This document shows positions 16,314 to 64,000 of a stretch of DNA of 64,000 nt, piece after piece. The translations under genes were made by a program, and so were the position numbers. This stretch comes from Saccostrea echinata. Lineage: Eukaryota. The notes beneath the pieces are model-generated. The model was not told the DNA's origin and searched no databases. It saw only the letters and a list, made by a program, of their open reading frames with translations. Location: assembly GCF_033153115.1 (NCBI RefSeq), contig NW_026889757.1, positions 6,076,001 through 6,140,000 of the forward strand. The letters run 5' to 3'. Positions within the stretch are counted from its first letter, which is position 1; each line of letters opens with the position of its first letter.

Positions 16314-17290
16314 ACAAGATGTGTTTGTGAAACACTGATGCCCCCGTATGGCAACTTATAGCTAAGGTTAAACTTTCTCAAATCCAAATCAAATATGTTG
16401 GTACCCAAAGTAAGTTCTTGTCCCGAGGAATATACCTGTGAAATATGAAAGCCCATTAAAAAGATGTGGAAAAGGTTAAAAAAATTTCAAAGGTAAGTCA
16501 AACATCAAGGTCAAGTTCAAATGGTCAAAATTAATGGTGCCCAAAGAAAGGCCTTCTCACAAGAAATACAGTTAATACACATGTGAAAGCACCAACCGTT
16601 CAAAAGTTATGGCCAAGGTTAGAGTTTTTCAAATGTAGGTCAAACTCCTAGGTCAAGGTCAAAGGGTCAAAGTTGTTAGTTCCAAAGGAAGTTCTTGTCA
16701 CAAGGATTACATATGTGAAGTATAAAAGCCATAGCACCAACCATTCAAAAGTTATGGCCAAGATTACAGTTTTCCAGAAGTAGGTCAAACTCCAAGGTCA
16801 AGGTCAAAAGGTCAAAGAAGTTGGTATCCAAAGGAAGGTCTTGTCACAAGGATTACATATGTTAAGTATGAAAGCCCTAGCACCAACCAATCAAAAGTTA
16901 TGGCCAAGGTTAAAGTTTTTCAAATGTAGGTCAATCTCCTAGGTCAAGGTCAAAGGTTTAAAGTTGTTGGTTTCCAAAGGAAGGATTTGTCACAAGGATT
17001 ACACATGTGAAGTATGAAAGCCCTAGCACCAACTGTTCAAAAGTTATGGCCAAGGTTAAAGTTGAGCAAAATTTTTTAAAACTGGGTCAAACTCCAAGGT
17101 CAAAAGGTCAAATATGATGGTATCCAAAGAAAGGTCTTGTCACAAGGAATACACATGTGAAATATGAAAGCCTTAGCTCCAACCAATCAAATGTTATGGG
17201 CAATGTTAAAGTTTTTGCGGACAAACAGACAGACGGACGGACAGGGCAAAAATTATATACCCCCGAATCTTCGATACGGGGGCATAAAAA
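16314..17290. mobile_element. HINE-type element with a ~146-bp internal tandem array (about 6 units)
   Basis: AACAAG start; subterminal IR ATGCCCCCG/CGGGGGCAT; GACA/GACG microsatellite; terminal hairpin. GTTATGG recurs at 16606, 16751, 16897, 17043 and 17193. Confidence 0.88.
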
Positions 17291-47000: not shown

Positions 47001-50000
47001 GTTTTCTCCACAATAGCAGACTTCTTTAATATATATATAACTTGTACATGTCCCAATATTATCTTTTTGATAATTTAACGGTTTTAAAACTTTAATTAAG
47101 ATTATCGTGAATTTCAATATTTTGGTGAACAGATGAAAAATAAAAAGACTAGGAAACATTACAGAGGTAATGTGACAACTATCTTTGGTAAAAGCCCCTA
47201 AAATTTTACAAGATTCAATTTAAGATAAACTTCTACGGTTGCTGTTTGCAAATGGGATTTAATGTGAATCAGATATGCATTTCCATTGGGATTTTCTGAA
47301 CTTATGTCAATACTAGCTATAGAATTTCTTACTTGTTATCTAAAATTACCTCTACTTTGACTTGTTTGAAGCTCAGTAATTTCTTGAGAATTGATAGTGT
47401 ACATAATATACCTATTTGTTTGCAAAATATCTAGTGCAAATATCAGTGTACCTTCAAGTGGCCCCCCTGTTTACAAAACAAGTACACTCATATCTCTGCA
47501 AATGCTAGTGGATGGTCAAATGTCAACATTACCCAACATGTAAATCGACAAGCACATATTGTACAATGAATTAAATCGACAAGCACATATTGTACAATGA
47601 ATTAAATTGACATGCACATATTGTACAATGAATAAAACATGCATTTATACTAGTAATTTCATATGGTTATGACACAAATCCTAAAAATATCGACCATGTT
47701 CCACTGATCAAGTTTCCTCTGGTATTACATCACTTGTTTACAAAAAGAAAAAAAAGGGAAAACATAGGTAATCAGAGATTACAGAGCTCACCTCAACGAA
47801 TGTTGTCTTTAAGTAAGGCAAAGTCCCACACTAAACTAATAATCTAGGAGTGTGCATCCCTAGATGCAACATTTATGCAATTTTGATCTGATAGGGCTTG
47901 CAGTTACTTGGGAATAGACTTATCTGAAAACTTAAAACTAGTCACTCATCCAGAAAATGTAAGTCAAATCCAGCATCCGAAGCAAGTTTTGAGATTGTTC
48001 GTCCCTTGATGCATCATCCATGCAAGTTTGGTTCAGATAAGCCTTATAGTTACTTGGAAATGAGATCTACTCCAAAAACTTTAACCTGGTCACTCATCCA
48101 GAAAATTTAAGTCAAATCCAGCATCCAAAGCAAGTCCAGTATTGTGCATCCTTAAATGTATCATCCATGCATGTTCGGTCAATATAGGGTTTATAGATAC
48201 TTGGAAATGACATCTGCTCCAAAAACTTTAACCTGGTCACTCATCCAGAAAATATAGGTCAGATTCAGCATCCGAAGCAAGTCCAGTAGTGTGCATCCTT
48301 AGATGTATCATCCATGCAAGTTTGGTCAATATAGGGCTTGGAAATGAGATCTGCTCCAAAAACCTTAACCTGATCACTCATCCAGAAAATATAGGTCAGA
48401 TCCAGCATCCGAAGCAAGTCCAGTAGTGTGCATCCTTAGATGTATCATCCATGCAAGTTTGGTCAATATAGGGTTTATAGATACTTGGAAATGACATCTG
48501 CTCCAAAAACTTTAACCTGGTCACTCATCCATAAAATATAGGTCAGATTCAGCATCCGAAGCAAGTCCAGTAGTGTGCATCCTTAGATGTATCATCCATG
48601 CAAGTTTGGTCAATATAGGGCTTGGAAATGAGATCTGCTCCAAAAACCTTAACCTGATCACTCATCCAGAAAATATAGGTCAGATCCAGCATCCGAAGCA
48701 AGTCCAGTAGTGTGCATCCTTAGATGTATCATCCATGCAAGTTTGGTCAATATAGGGTTTATAGATACTTGGAAATGACATCTGCTCCAAAAACTTTAAC
48801 CTGGTCACTCATCCATAAAATATAGGTCAGATTCAGCATCCGAAGCAAGTCCAGTAGTGTGCATCCTTAGATGTATCATCCATGCAAGTTTGGTCAGTAT
48901 AGGGCTTATAGTTACTTGGAAATGAGATCTGCTCCAAAAACCTTAACCTGGTCACTCATCCAGAAACTATAGGTCAGATCCAGCATCCGAAGCAAGTCCA
49001 GTAGTGTGCATCCTTAGATGTATCATCCATGCAAGTTTGGTCAATATAGGGCTTATAGTTACTTGGAAATGAGACCTGCTCCAAAAACTTTAACCTGCTC
49101 AAAAAACTTTAACCTGCTCCAAAAACATTAACCTGGTCATTCTTTAGCTGAAATTGCAGCATCTGAAACCTTGACTGGTACAATAAAACACACTAGAAGC
49201 ATCCTCCATGCATCTCTGACTAATATAGGCCATAGAAGTACTTGAAAAGAAAACTGCTCCAAAAACCTTAACCTGGGACGCCGACGCCGACGCCGAGGGT
49301 ATTACATAAGCTCCCCCAACTTCGTTGAGGTGAGCTAAAAAACTATGTTGCGTTCATAATGAATATTCAGTTGCCAAACTCAACATGGTCAATGTAACAA
49401 TACAATATCGTAAGGTAAATAAGTTTTATGCATGTCCCGCCTTAATAACATGTAACATGCACAATAAGAGCATACGTTGTGTGAATTAATAGCGATTCTC
49501 TGTAACCACTTAAACTTCTTTGCCACGCATGGTGACCGATTTTGATGAAACTTTGCCCATTATTACAACTTGACACCAGAAACATATATTAAATAAAATT
49601 TCGTTGCTATGTGTCTTGGTTGCCATGGTAACAGCCAGAAAAGTTGAAAAAATTGAGATTTTCAGCTACTTTGAATCTTTATTACCCCTTAATAAAGACT
49701 AAGAAAAACAAACAAACCATTCTCTCAAAAACATGACACCTTGTTGCCACTTATGCTATAAAGAAACTATTTAGAATTTATCTCTTAGTAAGTGGTAACC
49801 ATGGGTACATTTGGAATACATTTTAGATGCTGAAAAATGCTGAAAAACGCTCAATATTCACCAATGATAGATGTTACATGATCAAACTCAATCAACAACC
49901 TAAGAAAAACAATAAAAAATATTTGACCTTATGTAATTAGGTATTGGCATTATTATAAAAAAAATAACTTTCATGGTTGCCATGGTTACACAGCATAACC

Positions 50001-53000
50001 ATGCAAAATCTGTTGCTATGATTGGGTTAATGCTATTATCTTGAGGAAAAACAATAAAATTCATGACTAACACATATGCATCCTTGGAACCTTGCAACAC
50101 CGACAACATAAGAAAAATTGGGATTAAATGTTACTTTGCATTGTAACCATGGAAACAACGTATAAGTCGTTTAAAGTGATATTTTTTGCTCCTTTAGGAA
50201 TTTACTTACCTTTTAATCAAGAAACATATTATTTGACTCACCTTGAATACTACTTAACTGGTAGAACTAAAGTTGAATATCATATATTGATAAAGTTTGT
50301 TGAAAAATACAACACCGTTGCTATGGTTACCAAGAAGGGAAAATGTTCAATTTTGTTAATTTTATATCAATATTAAACCCTATGTGCCAGCTTTTTGCAT
50401 CCAGTTAGAGATTGGGTGGTAGTCAAAATTCAAAGTCAGGTTAGTTGTTCATATATATCAATCATAAAAGTTTTGGGAATCTACTTACAAGGGTGCGTAT
50501 CCAAGGAAACAGAATATTTTTCAAATTTTTATGCATATTTTTTTGGCTAATTTCCATAGCAACGCTCTATTTAAAGAATTGAGTTTGAATTTTTTGAAAT
50601 GTGAAAATTAGGGTCACACCAATGCCTTTAAAAATTGATCATCAGTTATATAGAAATATGCTTTTTAAAAAGATAGGATAAGATTAAAACACTAAGAGAG
50701 TAAATTTAAAATCCTTCCGAGGTAAATAAACCATAGCAACTGTTGCCAACCTATAAGAAATATCATATTTTGTCCTTGGTATATGTTACAAGGATCTCTT
50801 GTCTATTATTTGCTTGCATTTCAACCTATAATTGTTTTTATTCTTAAGTATATGACTTTATAAAATTAAATGAACAAAATTATTACTTTTGAATACTTTG
50901 TTTCCATAGTAACGTATGTAATAGTTGATTTACCAAACATGTTTATCATGCATTTAAGACATCAGGCCTTCAACTTTCAGAAACAGTCATTGCCACTTGT
51001 TTGCTTTGCTGCAAACGTTAACTGGGGGACTCTGAACATGTTGAAAAATGGCATTTTTCAAACGTTAGGACATGTTGCTATGGTAACCATGACACGTAGC
51101 AACCAATTTTTGCCTGATTTGAGTTTACGGTATCAAAGACTTTTATCATAGAGAGTTTGGAGAAATTCTGAGACTATGCGTGCCACAGCTCCTATATAAA
51201 AGTTCAAGTCATTACAGAGAATGGCTCTTAACATACATAATTTCATGTTAAAGATAAATTATTTATCAGGAATACCACATAGTATTAGTAATACTATGTG
51301 CATTATCATACGTCTAACACCTGTATTTTTCCTGCATAATACACAATTTAATATCTTCAGCTGACCAAAATAATTAAATTCACCCAGTGACCAAACTGAG
51401 AAAAATTTTTAAAAAGTACTTATAGGTACATGTGACCTATTTGTATTTCAAATTCAAAACAACCAAATGACCAAAGAATGGATCACACCATTTACTAAAA
51501 AGTTGCTACACCTGGTTTTCAAAATCAAATTTAGTAAAAACACAAACACTTCCTGAAAAATATGTCCTGATTTTCAAAACATAAACCCCACTGATTACCT
51601 GTCCAATGGCACCACCCCCAGGATGCCATTTGTGGCACCATAAGGAAAATTATTCTCTGGTAAAGGGTCGTCATAATGAAGGCGTCGTCTCTGGAACAAA
51701 TTACTCTCAGTATTCTCCCCTAGAGACTGGAGTCGAAAAAATCCAGGGTTAGATCTAGGATTGGCCATGGTACCTAACTGCTATATGAAGGATTCCTCTC
51801 GACAAATTTCATGCAAGTGCAAACTATGATCCCAAGTCAATGTAAATTTGGTTTTCTTCTTGTCCTTTCATGCAGCACTAGTTAACTCAAAATCAATAAT
51901 AAATTGGATAATAAAAAAAGAAAACCATTACATCATCACCATATTCTGCTTAGCCACTGGCAATTTTGCACAAAATATGAAGCTGACACGAACTTCGAAT
52001 ACAAACAGAGTAAAATATGTCAGGTGAGAGAATCACAAATTCACAGGTGTGTCCTTCTCCAGCTAATGTATCTATTTTACCAGGTATATTTTCTTCCACA
52101 AATGGGGTCAAGTGCGGTGAAATATTTAACTAATATCAAGATGTCATCTTTGCTACATGGGTTGTAAATTTCTCTGCCCAGGTTAGGCTGGCTATGCTGT
52201 AATTGATACTTATGTCCACAGCTGATTTTTAACACAGGTAAGTCTATTTGTGGTACAAGTCTACCAGGTGTCTACAAATTTGTCAATATTGACAGTCTCA
52301 TAGGATCAACATACATCAAATCAACACCAAAAGTCTTCTTCTCACTCAATTACTCCCGACACATCAACTTAAATGCATTCAACTTTTCCTTTGGGTGTCA
52401 ATACACAAAAATCCATTTAACTAAAGTGTTGAGGAACTAATTATCTCTTCAGACATTCAGATCGTTTCATTTCTACTCAGGTGGAAAATAGAAAAATTTA
52501 TTTATCTCCTGACCTACTTTTTAAAAAAAAAAAAACAAGAGATAAATCCACAGTATGTCATATGTCATCTAATCACCGGCACATCATTAATATTCAATCC
52601 AAAATCTAGGAGTCAAGTTTTACAAGGTATTGTATGTACACAACGATCTTACATAAATAAAATCCTGGAGTCTATATTCAAAACAGGAAAGCATTGCCCT
52701 GTTCTATTTCGTCTTCTGTTAAATGTTGCACGTCATTAAACTGGACTCTGTTGTACATTTATTTTTTCCAGTTGGCCAAATTCTTATCCTTCCACACAAA
52801 TAAAAAACACCTGAGACTACTAACAACTTACAAATGCAAGAAGAAACAATGTTATTGTTTTGTTTTTTGTCCAGCATAAGACATTTAAAATAATCTCCTT
52901 GGCCTATAAAACTTTAAAATCGTGGTTCATGTTAGCCTTGCTGTGGAAAGATCACAAATCTATTCGGCCGTGTCAAAAAATCTGTATTGACATAACACTA

Positions 53001-61799: not shown

Positions 61800-64000
61800 T
61801 ACCTCTTCTTTCTGCTGCCTTTCTTACTGGAGTAGTGAATCCTATCTCTGACTGAAGCCCCTATCCATCTTAGTGCTAACACAGTTCCTAGGTTTTTTCT
61901 CCCTATACAAATGGTTTCAACATGTCTTTATGGAAGAATCTTGACCCTGCTTCGGACACTGCATCAGTTGCTTAATTTCCACTTGTATCTGGGCGGTGTG
62001 TCGACTCCAGTTTCTTTTACTTTCGGATCTTTGGAGTCCTTGAGGGTCAAAATGAGACGAGCCTTCACAGTTTTGAATTTCTCTACCACTGATGTGAAAA
62101 GTAATCGTAGCTTAGTGATCCTGCTCTAAATTCCGACTGATGAAAAGCTCCGTGATACCCCCCATCCTCGGAGAAACTGTTGACTTTCCTCCCAAAGCCC
62201 TCAACCCATTACAATTGTTATGGCAATGTCGTAAAACATCAATGGCTATATTATTCTGGATAGGAGTTTGTGCTGGAAGACCCATGCCTTAAATTTTCCT
62301 GGCAAGCCCGTATTATCGATGTCTCTTTCAGTTTATTTGTTGCCTCCTGTTCTAGACGTCTGCTGCTATGTCCTACGGGGTATCATCATTCCACTTCCTT
62401 GCCATTTGATGGGGATATCTTGGATTGATGGTATCTTTTCACACTGAATAATCAGATTGAATTTTTGTTTAATTCTGTTCTTTGTTTACCACAAAGATTC
62501 CGAAACTTCATAAAAATCCTTACAAACAAAGATACATAGCGGGTTCCAGTAAATGTTCTACCAAGCCTCTTTCTTTACTTCTCACCAAAATATTAACAGC
62601 AGTGAAGGAGAAACTTTAGGAGTACTGTGCAACAATATATTCGAGAAGTGGTGTAAATCAGTTGTGGATACATTCCAAGGAACTTTTGGAAAATTTGAAA
62701 TCACAAAATTTTACTAAAATCAATAACATAAAAACTTACGACTTTTCAACTCTGTATATACAACCTTTCCCCACGATAAATTAAAGTCCAGGCTTTTTGA
62801 CATCGTTGACAGCTGCTTTTTCAATAAAAATAGAGCTCGTAAATTTACTTACCTTCTTATTGGTCATTTGCAAAATTATTCTGTTAAAAACATTTTGACT
62901 GTGCACATAAGTATTCTGAATATGATATTAAAAGTTGCTTGAGTTTCTCATTGACAATTTCTATGTGGTTTTTGGAGACCAGGTCTTCCAACAATCTGTT
63001 GAAATTCCCATGGGTACCAATTGCGCCCTGTTGTTAGCAGATCTATTTTTGTATTCATATGAAGCAGAATTTATTCAAAATCTTATACGTGAGAAAAAGA
63101 AATCTCTTGCTATGGCCTTCAACTCGACATTTAGATATATCGACGACGTATTATCAATTAACAATAGTTATTTCCATTCATATATCGACACGATATATCC
63201 CAGTGAGCTTGAAAGAAGCTGCATATGGGGTGTATATCTCTCAGTTGATACGATACGCAAGAGCATGCTCTACGTATGAACAATTTCTAAAACGAGGTAA
63301 GTTATTGACAAACAAGTTGATGAAACAAGAATATCAACAGTCTCGTTTAAAGTCATCATTTCGTAAGTTCTATGGTCGATACAATGTCCTTGTCAGCAAA
63401 TGCAATCTATCATTAAGTCATATGCTGACTGACGTTTTTCATACTAATTGTTAGGCCATTATTTACACCCTGAATTATCGACGAGTTTTGCCGTTATTTC
63501 CCGATCATGACAAGGAGCACACGGCGGGTGTGACCGGTCGGCAGGGGATGCTCACTCCTCCATGGCACCTGATCCCACATCTGATGTTTTTGGAGATCCA
63601 TGTTTGCGATGCTCCCGATTGGTATTGTTTGAATGGATTTTGAGCTTGAATACTATTCGTTATCTCCATATTTTATTTCAACGAGACATCTCGATTTGAA
63701 AGGCTTGAACTTCATTCGGACCCTTATGGCTTTTTCGTCCGAGGTTCTCATAACCCATCTCGCATGTATCTATATTGTCTTAGTGATGGTTAATCGTCCA
63801 TGTAACCTCTGCTTGAAAGCTTCTTGATGGCTGACTTGGTCTTTGGTCCTCTGGCCTCTCTTCTCCCTGCCTTTATTAAGAGATTCATTGCCATGACAAA
63901 AATGACTTCAAAAATAGTATTAATACTTTCACTATCCCTTTCTCCAGCCGCTACAATGATGCTGTAGTCTCCCACTCTGAATCTAAACTGTATCACATCT
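61800..64000 (-). mobile_element. Decayed Hero (R2-group) non-LTR retrotransposon RT region, split by a Penelope-like insertion
   Basis: Remnant peptides FVMAMNLL...RGYMDD (63790-63910), RMKFKPFKSRCLV, IDNTGLPGKFKAWVFQH and TSVVEKFKTVKARLILTLKDSKDPKV, with stops and frameshifts. It continues beyond the window. Confidence 0.75.
62470..63670 (+). mobile_element. 5'-truncated, frameshifted Penelope-like element (Naiad-type RT)
   Basis: Remnants KTYDFSTLY, IPMGTNCA..LADLFLYSYE, FRYIDDVLSINN and YGVYISQLIRYARACS. The ORF ends at 63454 with no downstream GIY-YIG domain and is followed by a GC-rich tail at 63515-63610. Confidence 0.85.

What the first reader, a model, noticed from the sequence alone, without database searches (positions are those of the whole stretch)
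49490..51227. TIR element with RFX X-box-like palindromes phased at ~175 bp from each end
Seen: 14-bp GTTGCCATGGTAAC-like motifs at 49619, 49795, 49976, 50143, 50317 and 50497 (spacings 176, 181, 167, 174, 180) and a second series at 50550, 50727, 50900 and 51074 (177, 173, 174). The outermost motifs lie about 130-140 bp from each terminus, the two series meet mid-element, and the spacers show no obvious mutual similarity. Known: GTNRCCATGGYAAC is the RFX X-box, and ~175 bp approximates a nucleosome repeat length. Inference: spacing rather than sequence is preserved, suggesting a chromatin-phased array of linker-located sites for the transposase/recombinase or host RFX. It lies about 370 bp from the alternative PINCH first exon and could act as its enhancer.
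Basis: partly seen in the sequence, partly recalled or inferred. Interest (0 to 1): 0.72.

Follow-up and report, generated by a model that had tools for sequence, protein, structure and literature searches.

The report
Sola3 transposon with nucleosome-spaced RFX sites
This is a young, gene-less jumping DNA element, present in hundreds of copies in a bivalve genome, whose ten look-alike binding sites for the host RFX gene regulators sit about one nucleosome apart; the same sites recur at set distances from the ends of its distant relatives and of unrelated jumping elements, so they likely serve the element itself rather than the neighbouring gene.

Summary
Observation confirmed. Window 49490-51227 is a 1738-bp non-autonomous DNA transposon with a true TTAA target duplication and at least 629 left ends in the genome. 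All ten palindromes are where stated; eight gaps average 175 bp (SD 4.4). Autonomous partners with matching ends encode a Sola3 transposase. A box 124-159 bp inside the end recurs across unalignable Sola3 lineages (7 of 13 held-out ends against 92 of 8783 other TTAA sites), mostly at the gene's 3' side. Boxes change less than spacers, and spacers carry 10-10.5-bp AA/TT periodicity. The same box occurs in a Kolobok-like family and in Helentron-like repeats, and the transposase shows no RFX-type domain, so a host factor is the likelier reader. Binding and nucleosome phasing are untested. This scan noted similar arrays before in Academ and Helitron ends of other genomes (unchecked notes); Sola3 is a further, independent case.

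The parts
49486..49489 (.). Left target-site duplication TTAA
   Evidence: TTAA on both sides in 34 of 38 copies, TTAT on both sides in 1; four empty sites hold one TTAA
49490..51227 (.). Non-autonomous Sola3-type DNA transposon, 1738 bp, no coding frame of note
49490..49505 (+). Left terminal inverted repeat TAGCGATTCTCTGTAA (first base T instead of the G of the clan)
51212..51227 (-). Right terminal inverted repeat GAGCCATTCTCTGTAA; 1 mismatch from the ends of the autonomous element G000:C6:10379453-10398813
49490..49651 (+). Left subterminal arm, about 67% inverted copy of the right arm
51054..51227 (-). Right subterminal arm
49619..49632 (.). Box 1 GTTGCCATGGTAAC, 129 bp from left end; full X-box consensus
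49795..49808 (.). Box 2 GTAACCATGGGTAC; neither half fits the strict consensus
49976..49989 (.). Box 3 GTTGCCATGGTTAC (family majority GTTGCCATGGTAAC)
50143..50156 (.). Box 4 GTAACCATGGAAAC, one intact half
50317..50330 (.). Box 5 GTTGCTATGGTTAC, one intact half
50497..50510 (.). Box 6 GTATCCAAGGAAAC, end of the left series
50550..50563 (.). Box 7 ATTTCCATAGCAAC, start of the right series, 53 bp after box 6; full consensus
50727..50740 (.). Box 8 TAAACCATAGCAAC, weakest box, one intact half
50900..50913 (.). Box 9 GTTTCCATAGTAAC; full consensus
51074..51087 (.). Box 10 GTTGCTATGGTAAC, 140 bp from right end; full consensus
51228..51231 (.). Right target-site duplication TTAA
51599..51857 (-). 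Host exon of the PINCH/LIMS gene (5' limit not fixed; at least to 51857), GT donor at 51598; the element lies in the intron after it
   Evidence: (contig of run X6 leaves the window at 51599 with 114 letters left)
46535..46648 (-). Next PINCH exon (first LIM domain), 114 nt, in frame with the exon above

Best explanation
This is a gene-less Sola3-type cut-and-paste transposon that carries ten X-box-like palindromes about 175 bp apart, which are likely bound by a host RFX protein and would help set nucleosomes and keep the element's ends reachable for the transposase supplied by full-length Sola3 copies. Shown: TTAA duplication, hundreds of young copies, partners with matching ends that encode a Sola3 RNase H-fold transposase, a box 124-159 bp inside the end across unalignable lineages, slower change of boxes than spacers, 10-10.5-bp AA/TT periodicity in most spacer sets, the same box in two unrelated element types, RFX genes in the host. 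Inferred: the terminal box is the selected unit; the internal arrays arose by tandem duplication of a nucleosome-sized unit holding a box and were then mirrored with the arms; their spacers decayed while boxes and spacing were kept. Inferred and untested: RFX binding, nucleosome phasing, and a gain in transposition, most plausibly in flagellated male germ cells where RFX factors act (own knowledge).
For: Partner: G000:C6:10379453-10398813 has TTAA, GAGTCATTCTCTGTAA at both ends, boxes at 139 and 128, and a spliced transposase gene whose catalytic motif matches the first 37 positions of the published Sola3 profile by eye (PMC5751038 supplement); a homologue folds with an RNase H core. Position: 16 of 26 TIR-like TTAA ends have a box 110-170 bp inward against 92 of 8783 other TTAA sites; 7 of 13 after leaving out training ends and copies of this family. 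TIRs differ between lineages while the box does not. The terminal box is on the 3' side of the transposase gene in 11 ends and on the 5' side in 3, so it is not simply a promoter. Conservation: 98 of 103 box bases against 1252 of 1464 spacer bases identical in four relatives fetched without using the box (p 0.005); private changes 19 per 137 box sites against 442 per 1499 spacer sites in 32 unselected copies (p 0.0005). Genome-wide perfect box pairs: 1400 at 164-189 bp, 60 at 109-134, 40 at 190-219 (the 1400 are mostly this family). Periodicity: 10-11-bp AA/TT power above matched genomic DNA in 8 spacers here (0 of 200 nulls) and 9 spacers of autonomous elements (p 0.005). Other carriers: a TTAA/GGTAAGG-ended family with a Kolobok-type transposase remnant has boxes about 351-376 and 480-505 bp from one end; Helentron-like tandem units of 156-163 bp hold one box each. 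No Pfam RFX match in 49 open frames of six partners; the C-terminal domain resembles homeodomains, weakly. RFX DNA-binding domains are encoded in the genome.
Against: No binding or chromatin data were available. Only 4 of 10 boxes fit the strict consensus RYYNYY N1-3 RRNRAC, 9 of 10 have one intact half. Paired-end Sola3 elements L186 and L206 have no box within 800 bp of either end, L190 only far inside, and family B has none at one end, so the box is not required. Short derivatives lack the inner array (L100, L110; a joint 49625 to 51075 in all four runs laid). Family A spacers show no 10-bp signal (p 0.95) and the phase of the signal relative to the boxes is unresolved (Rayleigh p 0.07, mean phase near the midpoint rather than half a turn off). 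Shared variants and young-versus-older fixed differences are not significantly fewer in boxes once box-selected copies are removed (2 of 140 against 42 of 1538, p 0.58); fewer private changes could reflect lower mutability. Other spacings exist (128-129 bp in the Kolobok-like family; about 190 bp in two others).
Confidence: 0.5

Rival explanations
1. Relic of old tandem duplication: a nucleosome-sized unit that happened to hold the palindrome was multiplied and mirrored; spacing is inherited and the boxes persist without a present function.
For: Units between boxes still align in family A (z up to 9.7), L190 (6.1) and the Helentron-like array (10-17); weak mirror likeness here. Bivalve mobile elements commonly carry 150-180-bp tandem units (window arrays of 147, 166 and 171 bp). 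Inner arrays are dispensable.
Against: Does not explain a single box at 124-159 bp from the end in lineages with different TIRs and unalignable ends, nor boxes outlasting spacers, nor the same 14-mer in unrelated element types. The large plain satellites in the window hold no good box.
Confidence: 0.2
2. The palindrome is a subterminal binding site for the Sola3 transposase itself (for example its homeodomain-like C-terminal domain), used to bridge the ends; likeness to the X-box is chance.
For: Fixed distance from the ends, in steps near one helical turn (128-130, 138-142, 159; Rayleigh p about 0.01 on 16 ends that are not fully independent); subterminal transposase sites are common in other superfamilies (own knowledge); the transposase has an extra helical domain.
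Against: The box is constant while TIRs and transposases diverge widely; Sola3 lineages without boxes exist; non-Sola3 elements carry it; no winged-helix match was seen.
Confidence: 0.15
3. The boxes are RFX promoter or enhancer sites that drive transposase transcription in ciliated or sperm-forming cells and are carried passively by gene-less copies.
For: X-boxes are promoter elements of cilia genes (PMC4168999, passages); three autonomous elements have a box at the 5' end.
Against: Terminal boxes are mostly on the 3' side of the gene (11 against 3); a gene-less family gains nothing from ten of them, yet keeps them.
Confidence: 0.1
4. This copy has been co-opted as an enhancer of the PINCH exon at 51599.
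For: Ten boxes lie 371 bp from the donor of a spliced PINCH exon.
Against: The copy is about 1% from the family majority and one of at least 629; its boxes are no better than the family's (box 3 is worse); no expression data separate alleles; the exon's own start lies on the far side.
Confidence: 0.05

Closest known systems
Sola3 DNA transposons (Bao et al. 2009; paper not held, terminal features recalled; profile read in the supplement of PMC5751038)
   Same: TTAA duplication, GAG-type ends, partners with the Sola3 catalytic motif and RNase H fold; homologues in bivalves, amphioxus, corals, brachiopod
   Different: Gene-less; left end starts TAG; long inverted arms decayed to about 67% over 170 bp; X-box arrays were not found described in the papers searched
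RFX X-box of cilia gene promoters (PMC4168999, passages read)
   Same: 14-bp palindrome GTTGCCATGGCAAC type, AT centre
   Different: Ten copies at about 175 bp inside a mobile element, not one or two near a transcription start; 6 of 10 depart from the strict consensus
Kolobok transposons (PMC9587614, passages read)
   Same: TTAA duplication; purine-purine start at the right end
   Different: PF20700-type elements whose ends I found start GG and have other TIRs; no such transposase is tied to these ends. A separate Kolobok-like family does carry the box
Academ and Helitron ends with RFX-like arrays
   Same: X-box palindromes near transposon ends, in one case about 172 bp apart
   Different: Other superfamilies and other genomes; here Sola3, with a box one nucleosome-length from the end
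Nucleosome-sized tandem units in bivalve Helentrons/MITEs (label recalled; PMC8268682 seen as search listing only)
   Same: 150-180-bp units inside mobile elements
   Different: Here the units no longer align and only the box and spacing remain

Membership tests
Sola3 (non-autonomous member) | TTAA target-site duplication (feature recalled) | tested here: met
   34 of 38 copies TTAA/TTAA, 1 TTAT/TTAT, 3 with a mismatch or offset; four empty sites with one TTAA
Sola3 (non-autonomous member) | Ends align with an autonomous element over positions 1-11 with at most 1 mismatch (Repbase rule, PMC4455052) | tested here: inconclusive
   Right end 1 mismatch from the C6 autonomous element (met); left end 3 mismatches (not met)
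Sola3 (non-autonomous member) | Partner with the same ends encodes a Sola3-type DDE transposase | tested here: met
   motif matches positions 1-37 of the published Sola3 profile by eye, not by an HMM run; RNase H fold of a homologue
Sola3 (non-autonomous member) | GAG...CTC termini (recalled) | tested here: inconclusive
   Right end met; left end TAG in the family; several autonomous partners start GTA, GTG, CA or ATG
Sola3 (non-autonomous member) | Long TIRs of several hundred bp (recalled) | tested here: inconclusive
   16-bp TIR, 170-bp arm at 67%, faint mirror likeness further in
Kolobok | TTAA duplication with RR...YY termini (PMC9587614) | tested here: inconclusive
   TTAA met; right end GA met, left end TA not
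Kolobok | Partner with PF20700-type transposase and the same ends | tested here: not met
   14 PF20700 stretches of 10 kb fetched of 114 matches; three had paired ends, all of another type
Crypton-type elements without true duplication (recalled) | Insertion into TT/AA with no duplicated target | tested here: not met
   TTAT on both sides of L009 and single TTAA at empty sites show duplication
piggyBac | piggyBac transposase tied to these ends | not tested
   PF13843 was not searched; the Sola3 partner made it unnecessary
RFX X-box | Fits RYYNYY N1-3 RRNRAC | tested here: inconclusive
   4 of 10 in full; 9 of 10 keep one RRNRAC half (read from the sequence)
RFX X-box | Host encodes RFX DNA-binding domains | tested here: met
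   10 matches to PF02257, several distinct genes
RFX X-box | Bound by RFX in vitro or in vivo | not testable with these tools
   No ChIP, EMSA or footprint data
Phased nucleosome array | 10-bp AA/TT periodicity between sites | tested here: met
   Met here and in autonomous partners, not in family A
Phased nucleosome array | Sites lie in linkers of positioned nucleosomes | tested here: inconclusive
   Phase test p 0.07; no MNase data among the 16 runs listed

The most novel reading that the evidence does not exclude
Unrelated DNA transposon superfamilies of marine invertebrates (Sola3 here, a Kolobok-like family and Helentron-like repeats in the same genome, Academ in notes on other genomes) have converged on one end design: host RFX sites placed one or two nucleosome lengths inside the end and repeated at the nucleosome repeat length, so that RFX licenses the ends for cutting in flagellated germ cells; the hundreds of copies would also seed RFX-responsive chromatin across the genome.
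Probability: 0.3. Interest if true: 0.85.

Novelty: new variant of a known kind. Interest (0 to 1): 0.56.

Why it matters
How cut-and-paste transposons reach their ends in chromatin, and how they aim activity at the germ line, is mostly unknown for the less studied superfamilies. A fixed, testable host-factor site at a set distance from the ends of many lineages gives a direct handle: one EMSA, one pooled MNase profile and one box-mutant excision assay decide it. It also means X-box scans for cilia genes in bivalves will be swamped by thousands of transposon-borne sites.

Tried and rejected
Kolobok as partner: PF20700 loci had other ends. Larger relatives with the same TIR (family A, about 5.2 kb; family B, 6.5-8 kb) gave no Pfam match above cut-off in 30 frames and are taken as further gene-less or decayed families. 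Helical quantisation of box spacings: Rayleigh p about 0.005 on 24 gaps, but the gaps cluster at one mode and two further families sit near 190 bp, off phase; not claimed. Tree of the catalytic motif region (21 rows, 87 columns): box presence not clustered beyond shuffles (144 of 500) and poorly supported; no conclusion. First spacer-homology run had an indexing slip and was redone. Conservation counts included copies found through the box and are biased; only the unselected subsets are relied on. Insertion polymorphism: no empty-allele joint among the rows shown for four runs of contigs, tables were cut, no conclusion. ESM Atlas gave only unnamed clusters. Literature: searches with RFX + transposon + X-box + nucleosome (4 papers, none on this by title and abstract start), RFX motif/transposable elements/nucleosome positioning (listing only), GTTGCCATGG + repeat (listing only), RFX + DNA transposon + subterminal + binding site (0 papers). 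Bao 2009 and Yuan and Wessler 2011 are not held; Repbase entries could not be seen, so the family may already be catalogued there.
Full report
Observation. The stretch 49490-51227 is bounded by TTAA on both sides and by 16-bp inverted repeats, TAGCGATTCTCTGTAA and GAGCCATTCTCTGTAA. All ten palindromes are at the stated places. The motif is enriched over chance in the window, 24 matches against 4.5. Eight gaps average 175.3 bp, SD 4.4, and random placement never gave such regularity in 200000 trials. The outer boxes start 129 and 140 bp from the ends and the two series mirror each other.

The family. A search of the own genome scored 40 of 2265 candidates and returned 38 near-full-length copies at 92-100% identity, the window's own included. 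The exact left 18-mer occurs 629 times, its control 0 times. TTAA flanks both sides in 34 of 38 distinct copies and TTAT both sides in one; joined flanks of four copies match other repeats holding a single TTAA. So TTAA is a real duplication. The window's copy is about 1% from the majority of a young cluster of 24. Family majorities keep all ten boxes and the spacings. The genome is that of a bivalve by the best homologues of its transposases.

The partner. PF20700 (Kolobok-type) elements had other ends. A short recalled Sola3 motif found 61 places. One lies inside G000:C6:10379453-10398813, which has TTAA, GAGTCATTCTCTGTAA at both ends and boxes 139 and 128 bp inside them. Its catalytic stretch, IVLDWAMKFLPRKFREDSMDWFAKRGVSWHI, matches by eye the first 37 consensus positions of the Sola3 RNase H profile in the supplement of PMC5751038 (two parts read). 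A full-length homologue folds with a core like Argonaute PIWI and integrase domains. Pfam found nothing above cut-off in 49 of the 113 open frames listed for six partners. The C-terminal domain is a confident three-helix model whose nearest structures are homeodomains, all with weak E-values. No RFX-type winged helix appeared. The terminal features of Sola3 (TTAA, GAG...CTC, long TIRs) are recalled from Bao et al. 2009, which is not held.

The box is a clan trait. Families A and B share the TIR but have no BLAST similarity to this element; A has boxes at 139 and 128 from its ends plus an inner series near 546, 713, 884, 1050 and 1245, B at 138 and 735 from one end only. In 22 stretches of 20 kb centred on the transposase motif and chosen without regard to boxes, a profile of the TIR scored 26 TTAA sites at 5 bits or more; 16 have a box 110-170 bp inward, against 92 of the other 8783 sites. 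Without training ends and copies of this family it is 7 of 13. Offsets run 124-159 bp. The terminal box is on the 3' side of the gene in 11 ends and the 5' side in 3. L186 and L206 have none near either end, so the box is not obligatory.

Spacing against sequence. Spacers here are at best about 50% alike; left-arm spacers resemble right-arm spacers in mirror orientation slightly (mean z 1.5; consistent against inconsistent orientation p 0.004). In family A, L190 and a Helentron-like array the units between boxes still align. The arrays therefore likely began as tandem duplications. Yet boxes outlast spacers: 98 of 103 against 1252 of 1464 identical bases in four relatives fetched without the box, and half as many private changes in 32 unselected copies. 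Shared variants alone do not reach significance in that set. Perfect box pairs number 1400 at 164-189 bp, 60 at 109-134 and 40 at 190-219; about 44 of the first 50 places listed for the 1400 belong to this family, so the count is not independent evidence. Among boxes in the unselected stretches, adjacent distances fall at 155-205 bp or above 240 bp. AA/TT steps repeat at 10-10.5 bp in this element's spacers and in those of autonomous partners, not in family A. Their phase relative to the boxes is unresolved.

Who reads the box. The same 14-mer sits about 351-376 and 480-505 bp from one end of a family with TTAA/GGTAAGG ends, one copy of which holds a short remnant like PF20700 transposases (30 residues, 53% identical), and once per unit in tandem repeats of Helentron-like anatomy (label recalled). 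The genome encodes several RFX DNA-binding domains. GTTGCCATGGCAAC and RYYNYY N1-3 RRNRAC are given as X-box consensus in PMC4168999 (passages); 4 of 10 boxes fit in full. RFX5 binds and destabilises nucleosomes, but on the nucleosome surface, not the linker (PMC12311785, abstract and introduction), so linker placement is not the only way RFX could act. A shared host reader explains the spread across element types better than a transposase site does. This is inference; binding was not tested.

The host gene. The surrounding gene is PINCH/LIMS on the minus strand. A contig of run X6 (RNA by guess) covers 51857 to 51599 and leaves at a GT donor with 114 letters left, the length of the exon 46648-46535; the two exons read in frame. 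The element lies in that intron, 371 bp from the donor. Whether the exon is a first exon was not settled. Nothing here shows an enhancer effect.

Novelty. Host-factor sites in transposons and nucleosome-sized repeats in bivalve elements are known kinds (own knowledge). Four searches of the held library found no paper on RFX sites in DNA transposon ends (listings only); subscription journals and Repbase reports were not visible. Earlier unchecked notes of this scan describe similar arrays in Academ and Helitron ends of other genomes; none resembles this sequence. I did not check those notes; the cross-superfamily test in this genome was prompted by the first of them. Verdict: a real feature, a Sola3-type gene-less element with a conserved, probably host-read end design; new variant of a known kind; interest 0.56.

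Noticed in passing
L168:9693-9998 (G000:C6 autonomous element): The Sola3 transposase ends in a well-folded homeodomain-like three-helix domain (pLDDT 94; weak Foldseek matches to homeodomains).
   Followed up: partly
first 140 bp of Sola3-type ends: AA/TT steps show a 9.5-9.75-bp period in both boxed and boxless ends; unexplained, perhaps DNA bending at the ends.
   Followed up: partly
window 49625 joined to 51075: All four runs laid hold a contig that skips the inner 1449 bp with 28 other letters between: a short derivative of about 320 bp keeping only the two terminal boxes.
   Followed up: no
L210-L215, L225, L227-L229, L240-L254: A 3.6-kb TTAA family with GGTAAGG ends (110 end matches) carries two boxes 128-129 bp apart at one end; probably Kolobok-type.
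   Followed up: partly
window 31260-32020; L198:5200-6150; L216-L221: Helentron-like elements with 120-163-bp tandem units holding one X-box-like palindrome each; the window's lone perfect box at 31456 belongs to one.
   Followed up: partly
window 44628-44834 (-): A second LIM-like frame between PINCH exons; possibly an alternative first LIM exon.
   Followed up: no
window 39039-40818, 47849-49101, 16588-17216, 27396-28183: Tandem arrays of 166, 147, 146 and 171 bp; none holds a good X-box.
   Followed up: partly
G000:C79, C122, C29:10665784-10690905: PF20700 transposase genes in head-to-tail arrays with a 4-kb period, like the multimers described for KolobokP.
   Followed up: no
L098 family (family B): 6.5-8-kb elements with the same TIR and what look like short spliced exons on the minus strand, no Pfam match; possibly an accessory or captured gene.
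   Followed up: partly
window 62932-63454: Fragmented reverse-transcriptase-like frames in a high-copy repeat at the window's end.
   Followed up: no
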